In this document: one piece after another, positions 935 through 46,643 of the stretch
Numbering within the stretch: the first letter of the stretch is position 1
Layout: every line of letters begins with the position of its first letter
IMG/VR virus record: IMGVR_UViG_3300023236_000004
Strand: one strand, 5' to 3'
Length of the DNA: 64,000 nt
From: an uncultured virus (IMG/VR IMGVR_UViG_3300023236_000004)
Lineage: Duplodnaviria > Heunggongvirae > Uroviricota > Caudoviricetes
Made by a program: the position numbers and the translations under genes
Notes under the pieces: model-generated
What the model saw: the letters and a program-made list of their open reading frames with translations, nothing else
Databases searched by the model: none
Told to the model about the DNA's origin: nothing

Positions 935-1480
935 TTAACTGCCCATTGGGCTTGTTGTTCCTTGTGGTACATCATTGGTTGTTTTGCCTGCGGCTGTTTT
1001 TTCAGCTACTGGCACTGAGTGCTTCTGTAGATCTTTTAACATACTGTCGATGCGCTCTTGGCCCACTAATTCTTGCGAACCTGGAGCATCTTTAAGTGTA
1101 TCGTCTGTTAATAAAGCACCTTCATGGTCTTTTCCAGCTTCTTCTGCGGCTTGGGTCAACTCAGCAGTATCTTTGGTTTGTACACAAACATAGTCTGGGC
1201 TCATACCAGCACGTTCTCGTAGCATCTGTTCAATCTGCACAGTGGTTGTTGGGTAAGCAACTTCTACATCAAACTGCCAGCACTCACATGCACCCCATCT
1301 TGGAAATTCCTGATGCTCCATTACAGGCATGCTCTTTGGCTTGCTAACACTTACTAACTCGTAGGTGTCAAGAGCACTTTTAATCTGCTCCATCATTTTG
1401 CTTGGATCTTGTTTTGCCATCTTAACACGGAAAGTATATGTTGTGTTAAGAGAGGCTATATATTCGTTTAGACTTTTCAT
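935..1480 (-). CDS. Hypothetical late protein
   Basis: 181-aa ORF with SD AGGA and ATAAATA late promoter at 1504..1510. N-terminus MKSLNEYI. Confidence 0.7.
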   Translation of the reverse strand: MKSLNEYIASLNTTYTFRVKMAKQDPSKMMEQIKSALDTYELVSVSKPKSMPVMEHQEFPRWGACECWQFDVEVAYPTTTVQIEQMLRERAGMSPDYVCVQTKDTAELTQAAEEAGKDHEGALLTDDTLKDAPGSQELVGQERIDSMLKDLQKHSVPVAEKTAAGKTTNDVPQGTTSPMGS

Positions 1481-1509
1481 TGGTATTCGTCCTGTTTATA
1501 GTATATTTA

Positions 1510-2034
1510 TTACTTCTTGCTGTTTTGCAAAATCTGATCTAGCAGTGCATTACGATCTAACACAACGCCTTGGCCGTCTACTGCTGTGTCTTCTGGTGCA
1601 TCTTTGCTGGTCCGATGATCCAGCTTTGCTTTTTGCAACTGCAACTGCACCATGCGCAACTTCTTATCCATCTTTGCAGTTTTAGCAGTGATAGCATGAC
1701 CTAATAATGTGCCTGCTGTTTGAAACACTTGTCCACCAAAACGGGGATCCATGTTCATACCCAGTTCCATCAAATCCTCAAACTTGTCTTTGGCCAATGT
1801 AGCAAGATCGTCCATTTCTTGATCGCTGGCTTCTAGGTCTCTGACTGTGGGCAGTGCAATGTCAATCTTGTCTATTGCATCATCTACTTGTGCAATAATG
1901 TTTCTCTGCTCTTGTATTTCTTGTTTGGCCTGCAGGCTTACTTCAGTGTCGTGCAGTATTTTAAAACTGCTGTCGCTGGATCCTGGTCCCAGGTCAGTGG
2001 GTAAATCAAATAGGTTTTCTAGTTTCTTAGTCAT
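1510..2034 (-). CDS. Putative terminase small subunit (gp16-like)
   Basis: 174 aa, helical. The segment MDPRFGGQVFQTAGTLL...KKLRMVQLQL resembles the PR..EV...L helix of T4-like gp16. Late promoter upstream. Confidence 0.45.
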   Translation of the reverse strand: MTKKLENLFDLPTDLGPGSSDSSFKILHDTEVSLQAKQEIQEQRNIIAQVDDAIDKIDIALPTVRDLEASDQEMDDLATLAKDKFEDLMELGMNMDPRFGGQVFQTAGTLLGHAITAKTAKMDKKLRMVQLQLQKAKLDHRTSKDAPEDTAVDGQGVVLDRNALLDQILQNSKK

Positions 2035-2042
2035 GCACGTAT

Positions 2043-2480
2043 TTACCGTGCTTTGCCCTGGTGGAAGATATCATGTTCAGTTACTATACGGAACTTTAGG
2101 CCGTGTTGATCACACCATGCTTGAGCCGCTTGCCACTTGTGCATGTTTAGCACTGCCGCGGCTTGATCCCTTGGACTTTTTGCTTCATCCAACGAAGTTT
2201 CTTTGTTTGGCTTGACTTCAATTAGTTCTGCATGTTTCTCGCCATTCTTCTTTACATACACAACCATGAAGTCAGGAACGTATACTGTGTTTTTGTTAGT
2301 AAAAGGATTTCTATAAGGAATACGTATCGATTCGCTTGCCCACTGTAGTATAGCAGGATTCTCATCACAGAAGCGCATGAACACATGTTCCCATCCGCTT
2401 CTAAACTGTGGTGTTTTGTTTCCTACATATTTTGATGTATTCTTTACTTGATAAAATCCATTATGGTACTTGGAGCTCAT
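2043..2480 (-). CDS. gp4: Head completion nuclease, T4 gp4-like (TnsA/PD-(D/E)xK fold)
   Basis: KYVG...RSGWE..FM.FCD.NP.IL.WASE...IPY...YVPDF...IEVKP signature. Confidence 0.9.
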   Translation of the reverse strand: MSSKYHNGFYQVKNTSKYVGNKTPQFRSGWEHVFMRFCDENPAILQWASESIRIPYRNPFTNKNTVYVPDFMVVYVKKNGEKHAELIEVKPNKETSLDEAKSPRDQAAAVLNMHKWQAAQAWCDQHGLKFRIVTEHDIFHQGKAR

Positions 2481-5603: not shown

Positions 5604-8600
5604 TTATAAAGTTCCTGCGGCTATATCACCTGGATTTTTTAGTCTAATTGGAATGAAGATAAATTCAACTGCCTTCATTGGTTCAATAGCAATATCAACA
5701 TACAACTCGTTACGTGCAATACGTGTCGGAGTATTGTTTGAATTATCGCAAACTACCAAGTAGTCAAAAAGACCACGTTTAGAAACTAAATCATTTAGTG
5801 AGCCACTAATAATATTTGAGATTTGATCTCTTGTTATTTTATCGTTTGGTTCAAACAAGAATCCATCTCCAACTCTTGCAAGTGATGTTCGTATAAAGTT
5901 AACTAAACGTGCTACGTTAATACGATCCAAACTACTTGCGGTTGGATTACGAGTCTTCTGTCCAAATACAACTAAGCCAATGCCTGGCAAATTAGTAATT
6001 GGGTTGATCTTGTTTTCGTACAGTGTATCGCGTAGTCCTACTCTAATACTGTTAGTTTCAAACTCTCCTGTTGTTGAGTTAATATAACCAACACTAGAAG
6101 CATTGTCTACTAGACCTCGTCTTGTACCTGCTGGTGCAAACCACTGATACGCAACATTATCGTTAAAGATCATTGTGCGCAGTGCCATATGACTTGATGG
6201 GACAACAATAGCGTTGCCTTGTAAGTCTGAAGTCAGACCTGCTGGATAATACACACCTAAGTACGGATCACTAGTTGATAGTCCGTCTCCGTTAGTATTA
6301 TTACTCCAGGCAGCAATGTCAGTAGCAGTTGGTGCTAGGCGTAACGGGGTATCACCAATAACAAACGCTGTATTCTTGCGATCGTTATTAAGAGCTACCA
6401 TTTCATCAATTACTTCTTCATACCCTGGTGCGGCAATAATATTAAAACTATATTGATCTTCACGCACTTCAGTATTTGCTGTTACTGCACTTTGCATTGC
6501 GGCTACAATTGATTGTCTTTGTGCTTTACGTCCTGCATTCATAGCACCACTAGTTTGTACTCCACTTTGTGTTTGCCATGTGTTCTTTACAGTTGGTAAA
6601 CTGCTACCCGCGCCTGGAACTGCTGGCAAAGTTGGGAATGCAGTTGCGTTAAACTTATCATTTACGTACTGTTTAATGTTGTATCCACCTCTACGCATGT
6701 TCCACAAAAGTGTACCACGTGGGAAAAGTCTATAGTCCGGTGCGTCTTGGTCAATATAATCACTTGCTAACAAACTTGTAATTGATGGTAGAGCTCCTGT
6801 GATAATGTCTGTAGTACCATCTGTATCCCAACGTGCATCTGCAAACACGATACCATTCTGACTTGTTTGGTCTGTGTTGTCAATTAATACAAAAGCAGTA
6901 CCACTGTAGCGATAAAGTTTTGGATAGTTTTCTAAATCACTGCTGTCTAACCACAAATCACCTGCTTTGAGTGAAGTTACACCATCGCTTTGGAATGTTG
7001 GCTCGGTTGCACTAACTTGCACACCGTTTGCATCTGTCAGACTTAAATTAAAACCACGTGCATCTGTTGTTGACCCGTCATAGTAACTGCTCTTGTAGCC
7101 TTTCCAGCCACCGATATCAGCAATCATAATATCAACTGCGGCAGCGTCACTATAGTACCAAAGTGTGCCGTCTGCTGGTGCTTGGTATGGAGCAGTAGTG
7201 CTGTATGTGTATGTTAGTGCTTCCCAGTTAGTCAATGCAAGAACACTGCCAGCGTACAATATAGTACCTGTTGTGCTACTTGAAAAACCTGCATCTGCTG
7301 TTGGTGTACCCGAAACATCTGTTAGGTAAATATCACCACCATAGATATGAGTGAAAGTAATAACATTTGTACTACTTACACTAATGTCTAACTCTGGAAT
7401 GTTAAGTGCTAGTATGTCGCTTACAAAAAGTGCTGGTGATGTACCTGACAATACTACTGTGTACTCTGTAATCACTGCTGAGCCAATACTGGTAACACCA
7501 ATCTTTAGTTGCTCAGTGGCAGTAAATGGATTAGCGGCTGTTGCAGTACCACTAACTACTGTTTGTCCTGCTACTCTACGACTAAATGGCTTGTAACCAC
7601 CTGTGCTTGTACGTAATGGATCATAAGCAACCCAAAGTGTACCAGCGGCAATACCATTACCGCCACCAGCTGGATCTAAACCATAAAGTGCATTTTCTGC
7701 TCTGTTGTAGAAAGGAGCAGCCTGTGTAGTGAATATATCTGTGGTTGTGCTGTACTTTTTAATAGTCAAATCAGCACCTGAACCAGTTGCACCAAGTTTA
7801 GCAAATACTGAACCTGTCGGACGTGGTGTTGTGTCTGTGCTTCTCCAACTTGGATATGCGGCAAAGCTACCGTAAAGCAATAGTGGGTTAGCGTATGTTC
7901 CTGCTGTAATGCCCAATGTTGTTAATGGAGTTCCTGATCCGTTAGCAATTGCAATCTTTCCGTCTGCTGTTGCTCCGTCGCTTTCTGCTAGGCTTGAAGC
8001 ATACAAGTACAACTTGTTGCCTACATTAGCGGCTGTAACACCAGTAACTGCGGCAGTGTTGATTGAGCTAACAACTTGGTCTAGTGTCCTACCAGCGCCA
8101 GTATTACCAATAGTAACGGTATCGCCGTTAATTGTAACTGTAGCGGCTGGAGTGCTTGCAGGAATACTTGGTGAACTTGCTGTACCTTGGATTGTAGCAA
8201 TACTAGTTGCCCAATCATCTGTTCCTATACGTACCCATGTGTTGTACTTTGCATCACCTGTTGGTAAATCTCCACCAGCTTTAAGGAACAAGTTAGCACT
8301 GCTTCCTGTGCCAAATGATACAGCATACTGACCAATTTGTCCAATGCTTGCTTTAGGTACATAGATGCTACTAACTAGTGTTTGATCAGCTGTGCTTGTG
8401 ATCAGCAACGGAGTATTATTTGTAAATGTATTTGTACTAGCATTCCATGAATAAATGCCCCATGCACTTACACTCAAATCTAACCAATGTGTGTTGTTTG
8501 CTACTGCGCCTGTTGGGCGAACTGCTGTTGGTGCTAGTTGATCTAAGTCAACATTTGCTCTAATAGCAAAAATTTTGTTTACATTACCCAATGCGCTATA

Positions 8601-32323: not shown

Positions 32324-32944
32324 TTAAGACTGTTGTGTATCTATTATCACATCGTCTGCACCTGCTGCCGCAACAGTTACATCACCACCTGATGTGTAAG
32401 TAGTAAATCCACTACCGTCAACTCCAGATAATGCAAAAGTGTTAGTTGCAGTACTTGCCACTGTATAGCCGGTTTCAGTGTTAAGCTCAACCATACCAAC
32501 TACTTTACGGATTGAAATTTTAGTTCCATTTGCAAGTCCGTGACCGGCAGATGTAATAACAACTGGGTTGGCCGCTGTTGCACCTGTGATTGTTTTTTGA
32601 ACTGCACCCGATGCTGAGCCGTCGGCATCTTTTGTCCACTGTTTCCAAGTAGTACCTTCAGTGTAAACTTTTCTGTTGGTCATCTTGGTAACTTGCTGTT
32701 GGTCGCCATCGTTGTCGGTAACGTTGATGGTAAATTCACTAGCACCCAAGGCACCAATTGACTTGTTAACCAGTGTACATGTTTCTGTTTTAGCTCCGTC
32801 AGATACAACGAAACTTTTAGCTGTTCTTTGTCTTTGAATATCTGCACCGCTAAGAACTTCGCTGCCGCTTGCAAACTTAACTGCTGTAATTGCAATCTTG
32901 CCAACGCCATCGCCAATAAACTTTTTTGCTATAGGTCTTCCCAT
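32324..32944 (-). CDS. Virion protein with C-terminal E1-FCCH-like beta domain, possible head decoration (start MGRPIAK)
   Basis: ITGATAANPVVITSAGHGL.NG....I..V.GM.ELN...Y...F.L.G.D...F..YTSGG. SD AAGGAG. Confidence 0.7.
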   Translation of the reverse strand: MGRPIAKKFIGDGVGKIAITAVKFASGSEVLSGADIQRQRTAKSFVVSDGAKTETCTLVNKSIGALGASEFTINVTDNDGDQQQVTKMTNRKVYTEGTTWKQWTKDADGSASGAVQKTITGATAANPVVITSAGHGLANGTKISIRKVVGMVELNTETGYTVASTATNTFALSGVDGSGFTTYTSGGDVTVAAAGADDVIIDTQQS

Positions 32945-33067
32945 TTTGTTTCTCCTTAAATTAAGTGGCGTTCTAGGCCTACGCGGTTTGGTTCCGCATA
33001 AGAACATATAAAGATTTATATGAACAGTAGTATTTATGTAATAGTAGTCATAAAAAAGCAGCCAACT

Positions 33068-33527: not shown

Positions 33528-33554
33528 TTTAACACCCTCCTTTTTAAAGTTAGG

Positions 33555-33606
33555 TGCGTTCCTTCGGTAACCATTACCTACTTCCGTCTCTTTCGAGATG
33601 AACGAT
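33555..33606 (-). ncRNA. glnA-type (glutamine-I) riboswitch aptamer 2
   Basis: AUCGUUCA-UCUC(GAAA)GAGA-CGGAAGUA-GGUAA(UGG)UUACC-GAAGGAACGCA: P1 CGUUC/GAACG, P2, GGAAGUA junction, P3, GAAG. Confidence 0.88.
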
Positions 33607-33611
33607 GATAA

Positions 33612-33664
33612 TGCGTTCCTTCGACTAATAATGAAGTCTACTTCCGGCCTCTCAGCTGAACGTA
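33612..33664 (-). ncRNA. glnA-type (glutamine-I) riboswitch aptamer 1
   Basis: UACGUUCA-GCU(GAGA)GGC-CGGAAGUA-GACU(8 nt)AGUC-GAAGGAACGCA. Same core as aptamer 2, with different but paired P2/P3. Confidence 0.88.
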
Positions 33665-42046: not shown

Positions 42047-42079
42047 TATAAATAATTGTATCTAGTAATACTATTTATA
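42047..42079. promoter_or_regulatory. Face-to-face late promoters TATAAATA (plus 42047..42054, minus 42072..42079)
   Basis: Exact consensus on both strands within the 56-bp divergent intergenic gap. Confidence 0.75.
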
Positions 42080-42091
42080 GGATTCAAAACC

Positions 42092-42925
42092 ATGGTAAAT
42101 GAACCAAATAACCCGTTAGCAAAACACTTTAGACAACCTGCAATTTATTTAGAACTCCCTAGCAAAGGCAAGCATTGGCCTGCAGGATCTATAGATCTTC
42201 CTGAGTCAGGACAGATTCCAGTATACCCGATGACAGTCAAGGATGAGATCACAATCAAAACTCCGGACGCACTGCTTAACGGAGAAGGCACTGTTAATGT
42301 AATTACCAGCTGTTTACCCAACATTAAAAATGCATGGAAGATTCCTGCATGTGACCTTGACGCTATTCTTGTAGCATTAAGAATAGCCAGTTACGGTGAT
42401 GAACTTACTATCACATCACAATGCAAGCATTGCAACGAAACTAACGAACACGCTATAGACTTGCGAGTGTTAATGGATACCATGACAGAACCTGTGTTTG
42501 ACAGCATAGCGTCAGACGATCTAATCATACAATTTAAACCTCAACTATTCGAAACTGTTAACAACAGTAACCTAGCAAACTTCAAGACACAGAGTTTACT
42601 GCAAACAATCATGGCAAGTGACCTAAGTGACGAAGAAAAAACCAAAAGATTCAATGAGTTACTACCACAAGTAACGGATCTGAATGTAAGTGTTATAGTA
42701 GATAGCATTGAGAGTATCACGATCGACGAAACTAATGTTACCAACAAAAAGCACATACTGGACTTCTTAAACAACTGTGATAGGAAAGTTTACGAAACAA
42801 TCAAGACCCATGTAGAACACTTGGCAACGCAAAACAAAATTAAACCGTTTGATGTTGGTTGCCCTGAATGCGAGAAGCAGTACGAAGCTTCAATGAGTTT
42901 TGAGTTCAGTAATTTTTTCGGCTAA
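42092..42925 (+). CDS. gp26: Baseplate hub assembly protein, gp26-like (tail-chaperone-like), ending ...SNFFG
   Basis: LPS.G...PMT.KDE...TPDALLNG...D.D.IL...RIASYG...C.HC...CPEC...NFF. ATG at 42092 with SD AGGA. Confidence 0.8.
   Translation: MVNEPNNPLAKHFRQPAIYLELPSKGKHWPAGSIDLPESGQIPVYPMTVKDEITIKTPDALLNGEGTVNVITSCLPNIKNAWKIPACDLDAILVALRIASYGDELTITSQCKHCNETNEHAIDLRVLMDTMTEPVFDSIASDDLIIQFKPQLFETVNNSNLANFKTQSLLQTIMASDLSDEEKTKRFNELLPQVTDLNVSVIVDSIESITIDETNVTNKKHILDFLNNCDRKVYETIKTHVEHLATQNKIKPFDVGCPECEKQYEASMSFEFSNFFG
42913..42919 (+). other. Putative -1 programmed ribosomal frameshift site T TTT TTC
   Basis: XXXYYYZ heptamer in the correct phase, two codons before the gp26 stop. The -1 frame is open into the 42937..43149 ORF. 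Confidence 0.65.
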
Positions 42926-42936
42926 GGCTTTTGGCC

Positions 42937-43149
42937 ATGTCTGAATCAGACATGCTTGATTACTTTGACACATTAGATAAACAGTCAAAAGCCTTAAAAG
43001 AAGAAATCCTTAAATTGTGTTGGTATATGCGGGGTAGTCTTTCCTATGATGAAGGTATGTCTTTGTCACAAGAAGATAGATCACTTATGTCCAAACTAAT
43101 CAAAGATAATCTAGAAACAACTAAAAAGTCAGGAATGCCATTCTTTTAA
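42937..43149 (+). CDS. gp51-like small baseplate assembly protein (probably the frameshift extension of gp26)
   Basis: LCWYMRG.LSY.E...LS.EDR..M..LIK pattern. No SD before the ATG. Confidence 0.65.
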   Translation: MSESDMLDYFDTLDKQSKALKEEILKLCWYMRGSLSYDEGMSLSQEDRSLMSKLIKDNLETTKKSGMPFF

Positions 43150-43571
43150 GACTAACTTCGTTAGTCTGTTGATTTCGTTATCACTCATCAACTTGTTTTT
43201 TAATGATATGTTTTTAGACGTTTCATCTAGATCACATGGTCACTCTTTGCCCAGGGCGGGCAAAAAAGTAAACTGCTTCATCTGAGTATAACAGTCACTT
43301 AGCATTAGAGCATTACAGAGGCGGTTGTCCGGTACCTCGAGCTCCGTCTTTATAACAACGGCGATTTATATAACATACGCTAACATATTACATAAACGTG
43401 TAGTATCGCTACTACGTCTTTTTAGCTTTATTGAATCCTGTTCAAACAATCAAACTCTAGCATTGAGAGTCTTCATCCATATGGGTAGTGATTGAGTGCT
43501 TGCTGTAGCGGCAAGTCTTACGTCCCTGCACACGTTACTGTCAGGTTTGGTACACACGAGATTAGCCTGTG
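43150..43571 (-). ncRNA. Candidate ~420-nt structured ncRNA directly 3' of a GIY-YIG gene
   Basis: No ORF listed in the track. At least 10 consecutive or nested helices; G-U pairs and a GCGA tetraloop favour the minus strand. Confidence 0.6.
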
Positions 43572-43994
43572 TTAGCTGTTACTACTTAATTTGTTTATAA
43601 TGTGGGAGCCATGGACACGGACTTGTATATGTCCGTTATAGTATTGTGGTGTTTCTAAGACTTTGTGTCTGAATTGTTCTCGTGCCTCGATATAACTGCA
43701 TTCTGCCTTGCTTTTACAATAGTAGAGTATTTCTCTTTGAAAGTTTTCTGTGCCTAGTTGTTCTATGTCTTTGTTGAGTTCGTCGTTTGAGCCATAATAT
43801 TCACGCCAGTTACTTTCTTTTGTTCCACGGCGTTTGTTCTTCCTGCCTTTAAGTGGGGGCTTGGTGGTTTTAAACCGTGCAAGCTTCTTCCCGATGTATT
43901 TACGGTTATTTGTTAAATTCGTTATCAAATAAACGAATCCAACACAATCTTCTGGTAGTACTTCTATTTCTTTAGATTCAAATAACCATGACAT
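43572..43994 (-). CDS. Stand-alone GIY-YIG nuclease-family protein
   Basis: GFVYLITN..N.RKYIGKK...Y.GS...G.ENF.REIL...E......YYN. 140 aa, with no appended DNA-binding domain. Confidence 0.85.
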   Translation of the reverse strand: MSWLFESKEIEVLPEDCVGFVYLITNLTNNRKYIGKKLARFKTTKPPLKGRKNKRRGTKESNWREYYGSNDELNKDIEQLGTENFQREILYYCKSKAECSYIEAREQFRHKVLETPQYYNGHIQVRVHGSHIINKLSSNS

Positions 43995-44022
43995 TACATA
44001 TAATTATCAAGACCAATTGATC

Positions 44023-45792
44023 TTAAGATATTTCTACATCGTTGTTATATGTAGTGAACCCATTTTCTTTCACTACACTTAATACATTGTTAACACGCCC
44101 TGCTAGTTCATCCTTGTGTGATACTAGCCAAACACTACGGTTACCTTCACGTGCCATCTTTTTAAGTATTGCTAAACTGTTTTCAACACCACTAGCATCC
44201 ATGCCAGTGTCAATCACTTCGTCAATAAACATCAAATTAATCTGTTGATACAAACTTTCCCACACGTCACGGAACGCCCAACTCATACTAAGTATCAGTC
44301 TGTTGCGTTCACCCCTGCTCAAGTTGTCAAAGTCTAGTTCTCTACCTAGTTCTTCAATACTTACTGTAAGATCGTTATTAAACTGTACAGTATGCGGAAG
44401 TCCAATCCTATCCAAGTACTGTATTAGTCTTGTGTTTAGATAACTCAAATTTTGATCTATAATGCGTTTACGTATAAAACTATCCTTGTTTGTTAATAGT
44501 TTCAATAAAAAGTCTTGATGTTCTTTTATGTTAGTAAGTGAGTTTATCTTGTCGTAATCAACTTCTTGTACCGCCTGTGTTTCCATTTCAGTAATCTGTT
44601 CTTCATACGGATCAGATTCTGCTAATTTTGTTTCAAGCTGGTTAGTTAAGTTTTCGATTGTGTTTTTGTGATTGATCGCGTCTTCTTTTGAGTCGTAGAA
44701 CACATTGGGTATTGGCCCTGGATCTCCCAGTTTCTCGAGTTGATCAACTTGAGCTTGTACTTTTTCTTTACTTTCATTGAGTTGCTGTTCCGTTTCTTCT
44801 AGTGTTGCCTTCTTCTTCTCTAGTACTTCTAAGTGTTTTTCATCATGTATTTCTTGACCACATGCATAGCACTCATGCTTTTCTAACTTTGCTACTTCCG
44901 AAGTTAAACTTGTGATGTGCTTCTCTAAACGTGTGCATTCCTGGTTACCTGACACTTTCCAGCGATTTACTTCGCTTACTTCTTTAGATATTACACTGTG
45001 CTTATCTAATGCGTCGTGTGCATTTAACTCTGCTTCGATATCTATACCGTCTAAGTTTTCTAGTGCCCCTGCCAACTTATCAACTTCTTCTTGTTTTTTG
45101 TTTTGCCACAAGGTTTGTCTGCGTTTTGTAGCTTCGATCTGCCCTTGCACACGCTCATTAGCGTCCTGTACTGCTTTGATACGATACTCTTCTTCTGTAA
45201 TATCGCCCTTGGTTTGCTTGTTTTGTTCCTTGAGCACATCTGCTTTTTCGCTGAGCATAGTAATGCCTAGTAACTGCTCAATAATTGTACGTTGATCATT
45301 TGCACGTAAACTCAAAAACGGCTCTGTGTATGTGTTTAGTGCCACAATATGTTTAAACATGTCGTGGCTCATATTTAACATGCGTTCTATCTCTGCTTGT
45401 GTCTCTCTTGAATCACCCTGTGACTCATCTGTAATTTCTTGTTCTTGCCCGCCTACGTAAAATGCCACAGTGTTAGGCTTGCGCCCGCGCTCTATCTTAT
45501 AACCAACACCGCTGTTCTCAAACTCAATAGTAACCAACATGTTTTTACCATTGGTTTTGTTTATCAAGTTATCTTTGCGAATCTTTGTTAGTGCTTCACC
45601 GTACAGCGCATAACTTAGCGCATTAATTATAGTTGTCTTGCCTGTACCATTACGTGCGCCAGTATCGTCACCACCTAAGTCCAAATTTTGACCCAACACA
45701 AGAGTTAAATCCTTGCGACCAAAATTAACAGCCTGGGTAGCATTGCCCACGCTCATGAAGTTTTTTACTGTTAGATTATTTACTTTAAACAT
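44023..45792 (-). CDS. gp46: Recombination ATPase, Rad50/SbcC-like
   Basis: KNFMSVGN, NGTGKTT Walker A, CYAC Zn-hook, LSRGE signature, LMFIDE Walker B, VSH. Confidence 0.95.
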   Translation of the reverse strand: MFKVNNLTVKNFMSVGNATQAVNFGRKDLTLVLGQNLDLGGDDTGARNGTGKTTIINALSYALYGEALTKIRKDNLINKTNGKNMLVTIEFENSGVGYKIERGRKPNTVAFYVGGQEQEITDESQGDSRETQAEIERMLNMSHDMFKHIVALNTYTEPFLSLRANDQRTIIEQLLGITMLSEKADVLKEQNKQTKGDITEEEYRIKAVQDANERVQGQIEATKRRQTLWQNKKQEEVDKLAGALENLDGIDIEAELNAHDALDKHSVISKEVSEVNRWKVSGNQECTRLEKHITSLTSEVAKLEKHECYACGQEIHDEKHLEVLEKKKATLEETEQQLNESKEKVQAQVDQLEKLGDPGPIPNVFYDSKEDAINHKNTIENLTNQLETKLAESDPYEEQITEMETQAVQEVDYDKINSLTNIKEHQDFLLKLLTNKDSFIRKRIIDQNLSYLNTRLIQYLDRIGLPHTVQFNNDLTVSIEELGRELDFDNLSRGERNRLILSMSWAFRDVWESLYQQINLMFIDEVIDTGMDASGVENSLAILKKMAREGNRSVWLVSHKDELAGRVNNVLSVVKENGFTTYNNDVEIS

Positions 45793-46643
45793 AAGTGCTT
45801 GATTATCTCAGTGGTGTTTGTGAAATATTTTTCCTGATTAAAAGGCATCTCAATGTTATACTGTTTTTCCAGTACACCGTTGATATAACTTTCTTGCAAT
45901 AAATCTAAATTAGGAATAGCTAGGCTTTCTTTGTTTGCAATACAATTAATTATTTTGTTGCAATGCGACTTGTAATTTCTAAAAATCTGTTTACTGTAAA
46001 ACGTATCCCAGATAGTGTCGTTAATATCTAAACTGCAGGTCCTGCCAACCCAATCAGCAATTTTGTCAAGGTTTTTGTAAAACAACTGTTTATTATAAAA
46101 ACTTTTGTATGAAAAGTCAAAACATTTTATGTCAGACGGGTAAGATAGTTTGTTGTACTCTAAAATCAAACCATTTTGTTCTGGATGCGTAAATCCAAAT
46201 TTAAAAAACTCCCTAAGTATGTGTCTTGGGCAGTTGGGGTTGTCTGCTGACATTTTCAAGTTGGGATACGATTTGTTTAGTGAATCCACTAACCATGAAA
46301 AGTATTTGCTGTTTGCCAGTGTGTTGTATGTGTTGTGCTGTAGATCGTTTAAGTTAATGTTAGAATCGCCTGCACGTAAAAATGTTACTGCGGTTAACAT
46401 CAACAAATCATCGTGATCGACTGTAATACGTAATACACTATCAGATCTATCTATGTTCTCTATAGAATAATGTAATGCACGGAAGTGCTTGTTTTTATTA
46501 TAGTTTTCGTTATCAAACTTGGCATGACTTGCACCTATGCTGTTGAAAGGATTAAAGTCTATGCTTTGCCCCATGATGTATTTGTTACACACATACTCTA
46601 AAAAGTGCCCGTGTGAGCCTGGAACAAAATCAATTGAGATCAT
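45780..46643 (-). CDS. Hypothetical protein
   Basis: 287 aa, AT-rich, N-terminal IDFVPGSHGHFL. Inserted between gp47 and gp46. Confidence 0.7.
   Translation of the reverse strand: MISIDFVPGSHGHFLEYVCNKYIMGQSIDFNPFNSIGASHAKFDNENYNKNKHFRALHYSIENIDRSDSVLRITVDHDDLLMLTAVTFLRAGDSNINLNDLQHNTYNTLANSKYFSWLVDSLNKSYPNLKMSADNPNCPRHILREFFKFGFTHPEQNGLILEYNKLSYPSDIKCFDFSYKSFYNKQLFYKNLDKIADWVGRTCSLDINDTIWDTFYSKQIFRNYKSHCNKIINCIANKESLAIPNLDLLQESYINGVLEKQYNIEMPFNQEKYFTNTTEIIKHLCLK

What the first reader, a model, noticed from the sequence alone, without database searches (positions are those of the whole stretch)
43150..43994. GIY-YIG nuclease gene followed directly by a ~420-nt densely structured RNA: candidate nuclease-ncRNA (possibly RNA-guided) system
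Seen: this is one of the largest gene-free gaps in the window, and it begins at the stop codon of a 140-aa GIY-YIG protein. On the minus strand it folds into a near-continuous series of helices: CCUG-ACA/UGU-CAGG (43525..43545); CUUGC/GCAAG (43499..43515); a multiloop closed by CAAUCA/UGAUUG containing ACUCU/AGAGU (43447..43494); UUGAA/UUCAA (43431..43445); GUAGUA-GCGA-UACUAC (43400..43415); a 13-bp AU/GU stem (43365..43396); CCGUU/GACGG (43344..43361); GAGC/GCUC enclosing GAGG..CGG-ACAA-CCG-CCUC (43308..43344); UUUGCCC/GGGCAAA (43243..43268); and three more to 43149. Several G-U pairs work only on this strand. Established: Seg/I-TevI-type GIY-YIG homing nucleases need an appended DNA-recognition domain. 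This protein is the bare catalytic domain plus a basic loop (KPPLKGRKNKRR). Compact nucleases with an adjacent structured RNA (IscB/HEARO, TnpB/omega RNA) proved to be RNA-guided. Inference: the RNA is co-transcribed with the nuclease (GATAATTA late-promoter variant 6 nt before the ATG) and may supply specificity or scaffold an RNP. I do not recognise the RNA family.
Basis: partly seen in the sequence, partly recalled or inferred. Interest (0 to 1): 0.88.

Follow-up and report, generated by a model that had tools for sequence, protein, structure and literature searches.

The report
Large phage RNA behind small nuclease gene
A T4-like phage carries a real, intricately folded RNA of about 365 bases right behind a small DNA-cutting enzyme gene; only its first third is a catalogued motif, it almost always sits behind such a nuclease gene in related viruses, but nothing yet shows that it guides the enzyme.

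Summary
Window 43572..43994(-) encodes a 140-aa SegE-type GIY-YIG nuclease, catalytic domain only. A conserved structured RNA follows at once on the same strand, about 43587..43222 (~366 nt).

Its 5' third is Rfam Polynucleobacter-1 (RF01718, 93.7 bits). The rest is in no Rfam family but is equally conserved: 69 pairs, 94% paired, 52 with compensatory changes, including a pseudoknot.

43150..43205 is not part of it. That stretch holds terminators of the convergent gp26/gp51-like genes.

In four RNA-first samples of IMG/VR contigs the RNA nearly always follows a small nuclease gene. This is usually the GIY-YIG, in some phages an unrelated PDDEXK_15 nuclease. The two are single-copy and mutually exclusive in 10 large records.

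A few RNAs lack any nuclease neighbour. Cultured relatives (Melnitz, Syn9) have the nuclease without the RNA. RNA class switches on the nuclease tree, and no internal guide-like segment exists.

Best reading: a resident, operon-terminal structured ncRNA gene of unknown function, co-expressed with a conserved phage nuclease (dN/dS ~0.1). Guide RNA and homing-endonuclease readings remain open rivals.

The scan noted this RNA-nuclease pairing before on other DNA (e1-8002962).

The parts
43572..43994 (-). 140-aa SegE-type GIY-YIG nuclease gene (phrog_447), catalytic domain only
   Evidence: ORF. PF19835 E 9.6e-37. phrog_447 E 2.6e-40. 44-sequence alignment with invariant Y22, Y33-I34-G35, R87, E103, N120. 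AF2 model pLDDT 88.5. dN/dS median 0.10 over 383 pairs.
44001..44008 (-). GATAATTA, one instance of a conserved CATAAYTA-like motif 6-9 nt before the nuclease start codon (promoter-like, untested)
   Evidence: Seen by eye in many of 63 distinct upstream regions. The exact T4 late consensus TATAAATA is in 0 of 63.
43222..43587 (-). Whole conserved structured RNA, about 366 nt
   Evidence: Extended profile hit 43217..43578, E 3.3e-95. blastn coverage by 55-75 of 75 relatives across most of the RNA (about 25 over its first 55 nt), until ~43222. The short 5' motif AAGYAGU just before the Rfam start is kept even when an ORF is inserted. 69 pairs, 94.3% paired, 52 covarying.
43444..43577 (-). 5' domain = Rfam RF01718 Polynucleobacter-1
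   Evidence: 93.7 bits against gathering 37, model 1-141. Helices 1-8.
43400..43415 (-). GNRA-capped hairpin GUAGUA-GCGA-UACUAC
   Evidence: 6 of 6 pairs with changes on both sides (helix 9). 5 of 6 on 112 sequences.
43364..43397 (-). 13-bp stem with UUAGCG loop
   Evidence: 12 of 13 pairs covary, 93-94% paired (helices 10-11).
43308..43359 (-). Pseudoknotted core: GUUGU (43355-43359) pairs with ACAAC (43324-43328) inside GAGG/CCUC, and all of it is closed by GAGC/GCUC
   Evidence: Pseudoknot 99.5% paired, 3 of 5 pairs covary. GAGC/GCUC 4 of 4 covary (helices 12-14). More covariation in other RNA classes, by eye. Sub-threshold full-length alignment to Rfam cow-rumen-2, 21 bits.
43222..43298 (-). 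3' module: GUGAC..ACUCAGAUGAAG, then hairpin UUUGCCC/GGGCAAA (43246-43264), then GUGACC..AUCUAGAUGAA
   Evidence: Nearly invariant motifs. Hairpin 98% paired (helices 15-16). The module is shared with the other RNA classes, by eye.
43149..43201 (+). Two hairpins and a T-run: terminators of the convergent gp26/gp51-like genes, not part of the RNA
   Evidence: The terminator scan finds 43149..43167(+). The second hairpin GTTGAT..ATCAAC plus its T-run is read from the sequence. It is conserved only in loci that share the 72-aa gene.
44023..45792 (-). gp46-like Rad50/SbcC-type ATPase gene, upstream gene of the same strand
   Evidence: PF13476 AAA_23 E 9e-12. Synteny gp46 .. nuclease - RNA .. gp51/gp26 in relatives.
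42056..43149 (+). Convergent gp26-like (289 aa, T4_baseplate) and 72-aa gp51-like genes
Evidence: PF12322 E 6.7e-19.

Best explanation
A ~366-nt multi-domain non-coding RNA gene lies on the minus strand at about 43587..43222. It forms the 3' end of the gp46 -> GIY-YIG nuclease gene row.

Shown:
- It belongs to a large, diverse family of phage RNAs.
- Rfam knows only the 5' domain of one class, Polynucleobacter-1.
- Class 1 members have a pseudoknotted core and a 3' module with two GAUGA motifs around a hairpin. By eye, the other classes keep the 3' module and, except class 3, a variant of the core.
- The 5' and central domains differ between classes.

Inferred:
- It is made by read-through from the nuclease gene. 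No promoter-like site was found in front of it in the window, and its 5' motif overlaps the last codons.
- It persists as a stable folded RNA acting in trans.
- It is a resident RNA gene with its own evolutionary history.
- The small nuclease in front is a conserved, single-copy phage enzyme under purifying selection. It is GIY-YIG here and PDDEXK_15 in other phages. It may be a structure-specific or host-DNA nuclease of the gp46/gp47 recombination cluster.

On this reading the near-constant pairing reflects a shared transcription unit at a conserved locus, perhaps co-expression for a common task, and not RNA guidance. What the RNA binds or does is not known.
For: The RNA is real and its structure covaries.

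The locus is conserved but plastic. The order gp46 .. nuclease - RNA .. gp51/gp26 holds in most relatives, with extra genes inserted on either side. In 10 of 77 and 7 of 75 RNA-first loci an ORF lies between nuclease and RNA.

The RNA tracks its downstream neighbour at least as well as it tracks the nuclease. Mantel r is 0.50 for RNA-p72, 0.42 for GIY-RNA and 0.28 for GIY-p72, on 58 loci.

RNA class needs 10 changes on the nuclease tree. Branches with strong support force at least 3 changes each for classes 1 and 2.

RNA occurs without a nuclease neighbour:
- L641, L706, L684 and L695 have neither nuclease within the 3 kb held upstream.
- The complete 354-kb record G088 has one RNA behind its GIY-YIG and a second RNA ~130 kb away with none.

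The nuclease occurs without the RNA. Melnitz is 63% identical and its whole genome has no RF01718 hit. Syn9 gp202 lies before a tRNA gene.

The nuclease behaves like a maintained housekeeping gene:
- one copy per record
- dN/dS median 0.10
- catalytic residues invariant
- mutually exclusive with a single PDDEXK_15 gene at the same place: 5 of 5 against 5 of 5 large records, with positive controls
Against: The pairing is tighter than plain synteny would predict.
- 38 of 43 RNAs start -15 to +24 nt from the stop codon.
- Where the GIY-YIG is missing, another nuclease takes exactly its place: 11 of 63 loci and 10 of 73. It is never a non-nuclease gene or nothing.
- Only 4 of 73, 1 of 75 and 0 of 77 informative RNA loci lack both nucleases.
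- All 71 informative GIY-YIG loci of this clade have some RNA of the family downstream.

No transcript ends or levels could be read from the public RNA contigs, so read-through and stability are inferred. One class-3 locus, L032, shows by eye a TTGACA-17-TATAAT promoter between nuclease and RNA. Co-transcription is therefore not universal.
Confidence: 0.42

Rival explanations
1. Nuclease-RNA partnership. The RNA binds the small nuclease and regulates, scaffolds or targets it. In the boldest form it supplies a guide through its 3' tail, which reads out into the flank, as TnpB reRNA does.
For: Near-constant adjacency on one strand, with the RNA 5' end inside the ORF end. RNA-first samples give 77 of 77, 74 of 75, 63 of 63 and 69 of 73 informative loci with a nuclease gene upstream. 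The nuclease lacks any DNA-binding domain and has a basic beta-hairpin. The conserved scaffold ends at one position (after AUCURGAUGAA) and is followed by variable sequence. The conserved 3' module with two like motifs could seat a dimer, which is inference only.
Against: Two unrelated folds, GIY-YIG and PDDEXK_15, would have to use the same RNA. The nuclease is 60-70% conserved while the RNA swaps whole domains, and RNA class is not monophyletic on its tree. GIY-RNA distance correlation is no higher than RNA-p72. The nuclease exists without the RNA in cultured phages, and the RNA exists without the nuclease. No internal guide-like segment was found. ORFs can sit between the two.
Confidence: 0.25
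2. Homing-endonuclease landing site. The RNA gene is a highly conserved resident. The GIY-YIG and PDDEXK genes are free-standing homing endonucleases that insert just upstream of it and cut RNA-gene DNA of rival phages, as T4 SegB does in the tRNA cluster.
For: Two unrelated nuclease families occupy the identical slot. A full-length 355-aa Seg-like protein sits in the same slot in L417. Relatives of the GIY-YIG in other phages lie beside nrd and tRNA genes: Melnitz, and Syn9 gp202 177 nt before tRNA-Arg. The RNA DNA has invariant runs of 17 nt that would make good targets. The Pfam and PHROG relatives are annotated as homing endonucleases.
Against: There is almost no empty site: 0 of 77, 1 of 75, 0 of 63 and 4 of 73 RNA loci lack a nuclease. 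There is one copy per genome, and no decayed copies were seen among the 98 distinct full-length coding sequences kept for the test. Purifying selection is strong, dN/dS 0.10. Divergence parallels that of gp46: 61-69% against 66-68% identity in the same loci. No DNA-binding domain is present.
Confidence: 0.2
3. Purely cis-acting 3' element: a 3' UTR that stabilises, terminates or insulates the nuclease transcript at the boundary with the convergent late genes.
For: It lies at the end of a gene row facing convergent genes. No intrinsic terminator for the minus strand was found after it. It starts at the stop codon.
Against: 366 nt with a pseudoknot, a GNRA hairpin and many invariant unpaired bases is far more than such roles need. 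The RNA also occurs followed by same-strand genes and in other contexts. Weinberg 2010 rated the motif as probably cis-regulatory of downstream genes (Table 1 of PMC2864571, passage seen), but the window has no downstream gene on that strand.
Confidence: 0.1

Closest known systems
Rfam RF01718, Polynucleobacter-1 RNA motif (Weinberg et al. 2010, PMC2864571)
   Same: The first 134 nt of the RNA match the full model at 93.7 bits, and its helices covary in relatives.
   Different: The Rfam model covers only about a third of the conserved RNA. The paper's tables (passages seen) list 16 representatives and rate it 'RNA? y, cis-reg? y, switch? ?'. Here there is no downstream gene on the strand, and the constant neighbour is an upstream nuclease gene. 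The searches found no paper that mentions this link.
HEARO/IscB omega-RNA and TnpB reRNA (OMEGA systems)
   Same: A compact nuclease gene with a large structured RNA that abuts or overlaps the ORF end, found first as an orphan motif.
   Different: The nuclease folds differ (GIY-YIG or PD-(D/E)XK, not RuvC/HNH). No transposon ends and no guide segment were found. Co-occurrence is not obligate in either direction. This is a resemblance recalled from knowledge, not a tested membership.
T4 SegB and other free-standing Seg GIY-YIG homing endonucleases beside stable-RNA genes
   Same: A SegE-type GIY-YIG catalytic domain placed next to a structured-RNA gene. A homolog in Syn9 sits before tRNA-Arg.
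   Different: 140 aa without the C-terminal DNA-binding part. Single copy, near-universal at the site, and under strong purifying selection. SegB biology is recalled and was not read here.
Rfam RF02947, cow-rumen-2 RNA
   Same: The central domain aligns end to end with the model in two diverged members (43296..43397 and L172 2602..2707). It shares the UUAGC-loop hairpin, GCCGCC, and the GGAUGACC-type loop.
   Different: The score is only 21 bits against a gathering score of 66 (E 0.18-0.34). This is a lead to distant kinship, not membership.
Pfam PF24608 PDDEXK_15, 'phage putative PDDEXK endonuclease'
   Same: It takes the place of the GIY-YIG gene directly upstream of the RNA in other phages.
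   Different: An unrelated fold, and not present in this window or in its near-identical record G001.

Membership tests
Rfam RF01718 Polynucleobacter-1 | Covariance-model score at or above the curated gathering score (37 bits) over the whole model | tested here: met
   93.7 bits, model 1-141, window 43444..43577(-).
Rfam RF01718 Polynucleobacter-1 | Model helices kept by compensatory changes in relatives | tested here: met
   Helices 1-8: 22 of 30 pairs have changes on both sides, and 75-100% of cells are paired.
Rfam RF01718 Polynucleobacter-1 | Tentative class in the source paper: cis-regulatory leader of a downstream gene | tested here: not met
   No same-strand gene follows in the window, and the next genes are convergent.
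Pfam PF19835 SegE_GIY-YIG | Profile score above the curated cut-off (25 bits), with GIY and YIG motifs and the catalytic Glu and Asn | tested here: met
   126.4 bits, profile 1-123. Y22, Y33-I34-G35, E103 and N120 are invariant in 44 sequences. Assigning these residues to catalytic roles is from recall.
Free-standing Seg-type homing endonuclease | DNA-binding domain appended to the catalytic domain | tested here: not met
   140 aa, with the Pfam profile covering residues 3-123. The model shows one domain plus a short C-terminal helix. L417 carries a 355-aa form at the same site.
Free-standing Seg-type homing endonuclease | Sporadic presence or absence at the site, and decay after fixation | tested here: not met
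   Nuclease-free RNA sites number 0 of 77, 1 of 75, 0 of 63 and 4 of 73. dN/dS is 0.10.
Free-standing Seg-type homing endonuclease | Cuts the nuclease-free allele near its own insertion site and drives co-conversion | not testable with these tools
   This needs enzyme assays or phage crosses.
OMEGA-type RNA-guided nuclease (IscB/TnpB with omega-RNA or reRNA) | RNA scaffold adjoining or overlapping the nuclease ORF | tested here: met
   The RNA starts within the last codons. The gap is -15..+24 nt in 38 of 43 loci.
OMEGA-type RNA-guided nuclease (IscB/TnpB with omega-RNA or reRNA) | Variable guide segment of about 16-20 nt at one end of the RNA | tested here: inconclusive
   No variable unpaired stretch of 14 nt or more lies inside the RNA. 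The tail after 43222 is variable but differs at only 5 places between the window and its 94%-identical relative.
OMEGA-type RNA-guided nuclease (IscB/TnpB with omega-RNA or reRNA) | Obligate co-occurrence of nuclease and RNA | tested here: not met
   Melnitz and Syn9 have the nuclease without the RNA. L641, L684, L695, L706 and the second copy in G088 are RNAs without a nuclease neighbour.
OMEGA-type RNA-guided nuclease (IscB/TnpB with omega-RNA or reRNA) | RuvC and/or HNH nuclease fold | tested here: not met
   GIY-YIG, or PDDEXK_15 in other phages.
Rfam RF02947 cow-rumen-2 | Score at or above the gathering score (66 bits) | tested here: not met
   21.3 and 20.8 bits, both full-length alignments.
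Group I intron with intron-encoded GIY-YIG gene | Intron core recognisable and flanked by exons of one gene | tested here: not met
   No intron family up to E 10 in 42900..44100. gp46 ends with its own stop 28 nt before the nuclease ATG, and no same-strand ORF follows the RNA.

The most novel reading that the evidence does not exclude
The RNA is the specificity or control subunit of a new kind of ribonucleoprotein DNA nuclease. Interchangeable minimal nucleases (GIY-YIG or PD-(D/E)XK) dock on the conserved 3' module with its two GAUGA motifs. The variable 5' and central domains, or the read-out 3' tail, set what is cut. This would be a phage counterpart of OMEGA systems built on other nuclease folds.
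Probability: 0.12. Interest if true: 0.95.

Novelty: new variant of a known kind. Interest (0 to 1): 0.62.

Why it matters
An orphan Rfam motif of unknown function, listed since 2010 with 16 examples, turns out to be the front third of a much larger RNA. That RNA is pseudoknotted, about 366 nt long, and common in uncultured aquatic T4-like phages.

The RNA sits in a fixed relation to a small nuclease gene that can be swapped for an unrelated one. HEARO and TnpB RNAs looked much the same before they proved to be guide RNAs.

Even if the link proves to be only a shared operon, two things follow. The RNA joins the short list of large, ornate phage RNAs whose jobs are unknown. And the pair of mutually exclusive, single-copy nucleases beside gp46 points to an unassigned nuclease role in these phages, which is my inference. 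The work also gives concrete constructs and boundaries for a binding and cleavage test.

Tried and rejected
**Known RNA types**
- tRNA or tmRNA in the gap: ARAGORN finds none in the window.
- Group I intron: no Rfam hit and no exon logic.
- Other Rfam families in 20 relatives whose RNA lacks the Polynucleobacter-1 domain: none at gathering.

**Expression**
- Metatranscriptome contigs of 4 runs from 4 studies were laid on 42900..44300.
- They cover the region. One 744-nt contig spans 43086..43817.
- Depth is flat per contig and no ends are shown. DNA carry-over cannot be excluded. No verdict on a discrete RNA.

**Bacterial genomes**
- The scan with the core pattern gave 121 rows, nearly all chance matches in GC-rich genomes. 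Only two short MAG contigs (L298, L327) hold the RNA.
- The Polynucleobacter genome copy of the Rfam seed could not be reached, so its neighbours are unknown.

**Protein relatives**
- Kinship of the nuclease to solved structures by sequence: none.
- By fold, only a weak I-TevI match at E 0.2. T4 endonuclease II was not among the listed matches.

**Motifs and helices**
- The ATAGGCAWA motif, seen by eye before RNAs of other classes, has 0 matches in the window.
- A long-range helix between the 5' AAGYAGU motif and one of the two CUNRGAUGA motifs was suggested by eye and by RNAalifold. It was ambiguous between the two partners and I do not claim it.
- The k-turn reading of GUGA..GAUGA is a recalled resemblance and was not tested.
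I report these two helices only qualitatively.

**Supplements**
- Supplements of PMC2864571 were searched for the motif name. Only tables, alignments and figure text were found, with no discussion of neighbouring genes.
Full report
**What is in the window**

The minus strand carries a gp46-like ATPase gene at 44023..45792. After 28 nt comes a 140-aa ORF at 43572..43994, followed by a gene-free stretch down to 43150. From the other side, the convergent + strand genes end at 43149. These are a T4_baseplate (gp26-like) gene at 42056..42925 and a 72-aa gene at 42931..43149.

The 140-aa protein matches Pfam SegE_GIY-YIG over the whole profile (E 9.6e-37). It also matches PHROG 447, a family of ~148-aa proteins misnamed 'NAD synthetase'. 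An AlphaFold model built on 44 relatives (pLDDT 88.5) shows one GIY-YIG domain. The basic stretch folds as a beta-hairpin. The best fold match is only weak, to the I-TevI catalytic domain (E 0.2). The GIY and YIG tyrosines, E103 and N120 are invariant in the 44 sequences.

**The RNA**

Rfam places Polynucleobacter-1 (RF01718) at 43444..43577(-) with 93.7 bits against a gathering score of 37, over the full model and overlapping the stop codon. No tRNA is present. The rest of the gap has no significant Rfam match.

On its own the 431-nt gap folds only modestly better than shuffles: z is -2.25 on the minus strand and -1.23 on the plus strand. The evidence comes from relatives. blastn of the window RNA against 75 distinct relatives shows that 55-75 of them align across most of the RNA, until about 43222. 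The best-kept stretch is 43320..43362, outside the Rfam model.

On an alignment of 78 distinct sequences, RNAalifold predicts 62 pairs, 41 of them with compensatory changes. A curated structure of 69 pairs in 16 helices gave these counts:
- 94.3% of cells are paired, against 35-47% when the partner is slid by 1-3 columns.
- 52 pairs have changes on both sides.
- The covariation score is 0.429, against 0.055-0.096 for the slid controls.
- 0 of 500 shuffles reach the observed values.

Half of these helices lie beyond the Rfam model:
- a GNRA-capped hairpin (43400..43415)
- a 13-bp stem (43364..43397)
- GAGC/GCUC and GAGG/CCUC
- a pseudoknot GUUGU/ACAAC (43355-59 with 43324-28)
- the UUUGCCC hairpin (43246..43264)

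The 3' end is a module of two similar motifs, GUGAC..CUNRGAUGA, on either side of that hairpin. It ends at 43222. A short motif, AAGYAGU, just before the Rfam start is kept even where another ORF precedes the RNA. The RNA therefore begins near 43587.

Abundant G-U pairs fit only the minus strand.

43149..43201 holds two hairpins and a T-run on the + strand. These are terminators of the convergent genes, conserved only where the 72-aa gene is conserved. The structured RNA is thus ~366 nt, not ~420 nt.

Most are confirmed. The inner CGG-ACAA-CCG hairpin is replaced by the pseudoknot. CCGUU/GACGG and UUGAA/UUCAA are not supported.

**Link with the nuclease: protein-first sample**

The best 80 were kept.

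RF01718 is over its cut-off in 43 of the 80 records. It is always downstream on the same strand. The start lies -15 to +24 nt from the stop in 38 of 43 loci, 134-236 nt away in 4, and 1043 nt away in 1.

The other loci have a gap of the same size holding a diverged RNA. An iterated profile of the core hits 58 of the 71 loci that have at least 380 nt downstream. The remaining 13 break down as follows:
- nine carry a third class with the same 3' module
- three carry a further variant
- in one the RNA lies beyond the stretch searched

By these counts all 71 informative loci have some RNA of this family. The classes are 39, 20, 9 and 3 loci. Rfam names none of the non-class-1 forms in 20 loci tried.

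**Link with the nuclease: RNA-first samples**

There were four samples. Contigs overlap between samples, so they are not independent.

| Sample | Pattern taken from | RNAs found | GIY-YIG upstream | Other outcomes |
|---|---|---|---|---|
| a | 5' domain | 77 | 77 (67 within 400 nt, 10 with an ORF between) | none |
| b | core | 77 | 67 adjacent, 7 further upstream | 2 too short, 1 none |
| c | class-2 core | 66 | 52 | 11 PDDEXK_15 in the same slot, 3 too short; the other 14 pattern matches are chance |
| d | 3' module | 79 (one more match is chance, inside an ORF) | 59 | 10 PDDEXK_15, 6 too short, 4 real RNAs with neither nuclease |

In sample (c) the alternative upstream ORF is a ~170-aa protein that matches Pfam PF24608 PDDEXK_15 (E 2.8e-23).

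**What kind of link**

The two nucleases are single-copy and mutually exclusive. Five large GIY-YIG records each have one PF19835 hit and no PF24608 hit. Five PDDEXK records show the reverse. Each search served as the positive control for the other. The records are 27-85% complete.

The GIY-YIG gene is under strong purifying selection. Median dN/dS is 0.10 over 383 pairs drawn from 98 distinct coding sequences. It diverges about as fast as gp46 in the same loci.

In the phage collection it has one match per record in 815 records, including 339 Synechococcus phage records. The closest cultured relative is Melnitz at 63% identity. There the gene lies behind ribonucleotide reductase genes, and the whole Melnitz genome has no RF01718 hit. 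In Syn9 the homolog gp202 lies 177 nt before tRNA-Arg, with no RNA of this family.

The reverse also occurs:
- The complete 354-kb record G088 has one RNA right behind its GIY-YIG and a second RNA, of another class, ~130 kb away with no nuclease nearby.
- L641 has the RNA behind what looks by eye like a MazG-type gene.
- L706 has it among genes that look bacterial by eye.

Distance matrices on 58 distinct loci give r 0.42 for nuclease-RNA, 0.50 for RNA-72-aa gene and 0.28 for nuclease-72-aa gene.

On a maximum-likelihood tree of 58 nuclease sequences, the RNA classes need 10 changes. The minimum possible is 3 and the shuffled mean is 21.7. Well-supported branches force at least 3 changes each for classes 1 and 2.

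The region between gp46 and gp51 is plastic, with radical-SAM-like (judged by eye) and other genes inserted on both sides of the pair.

Inside the RNA, the variable unpaired stretches are at most ~13 nt long. Only the tail after 43222 is free to vary.

**Reading**

The RNA depends on a nuclease gene upstream far more than the nuclease depends on the RNA, and the nuclease can be exchanged for an unrelated one.

I rank the readings as follows:
1. A resident, operon-terminal ncRNA gene co-expressed with a conserved phage nuclease (0.42).
2. A true nuclease-RNA partnership (0.25, of which about 0.1 is for guidance).
3. Homing endonucleases that settle beside a conserved RNA gene (0.20).
4. A purely cis-acting 3' element (0.10).

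Each reading leaves something unexplained. The first does not explain why the slot is always filled by a nuclease. The second does not explain two unrelated folds and the free swapping of RNA domains. The third does not explain the near-total occupancy and the housekeeping-like evolution of the gene.

**Literature and earlier notes**

'Polynucleobacter-1' occurs in one paper of the library, Weinberg et al. 2010. I saw its Table 1 row, its supplementary table rows, and the head of the alignment file. It lists 16 representatives and rates the motif as a likely RNA, likely cis-regulatory.

Searches for GIY-YIG with 'RNA-guided', with 'RNA motif' and 'phage', and with 'cyanophage' returned 31, 4 and 37 papers (15, 4 and 15 listed). 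None of the listed titles or abstracts describes a natural nuclease-RNA pair of this kind. I read only passages of one of these, PMC9964418.

I tested the swap here and found it.

Public RNA-library contigs cover the locus but show neither ends nor levels.

Noticed in passing
window 32942..33022(-), 33553..33606(-), 33610..33664(-): Rfam freshwater-2 RNA (63.7 bits) and two tandem glutamine riboswitch aptamers (61.1 and 46.7 bits) lie about 10 kb from the finding.
   Followed up: no
window 43149..43201(+): Two back-to-back hairpins and a T-run end the gp26/gp51-like gene pair.
   Followed up: partly
window 44001..44008(-) and the upstream regions of L003-L082: A CATAAYTA-like motif lies 6-9 nt before the nuclease start codon in many of 63 distinct upstream regions, whatever gene lies upstream. 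The T4 late consensus TATAAATA occurs in none.
   Followed up: partly
G088:C1, RNA near 136.6 kb (locus L695) and nuclease at 6858..7238 (locus L748): A complete 354-kb phage record holds two RNAs of the family. A class-1 copy sits behind its GIY-YIG gene, and a copy of another class lies ~130 kb away with no nuclease nearby.
   Followed up: partly
L417, re-oriented copy, 1059..2126: A full-length 355-aa Seg-like GIY-YIG protein occupies the same slot before the 72-aa and gp26-like genes. It is followed only by the 3' half of the RNA (profile positions 218-346, E 1e-9).
   Followed up: no
L032/L043, between the nuclease stop and the RNA: By eye, a perfect TTGACA-17 nt-TATAAT promoter lies in front of a class-3 RNA. 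Some members may therefore be transcribed on their own.
   Followed up: no
L015, L020, L046, L076 downstream of the nuclease gene: A small ORF of about 82 aa lies between the GIY-YIG gene and a class-3 RNA. It was called as an ORF only in L046 and read by eye in the others. Its motif is ..YGTPIDQLP..YL.W...
   Followed up: no
window 45780..46643(-): The 287-aa ORF directly upstream of gp46 matches no Pfam or PHROG family. From recall, T4-like phages usually have gp47 at this position.
   Followed up: no
window 43296..43397(-) and L172 2602..2707: The central RNA domain aligns end to end with Rfam cow-rumen-2 at about 21 bits in two diverged members. This is well under the gathering score of 66 but hints at distant kinship.
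   Followed up: partly
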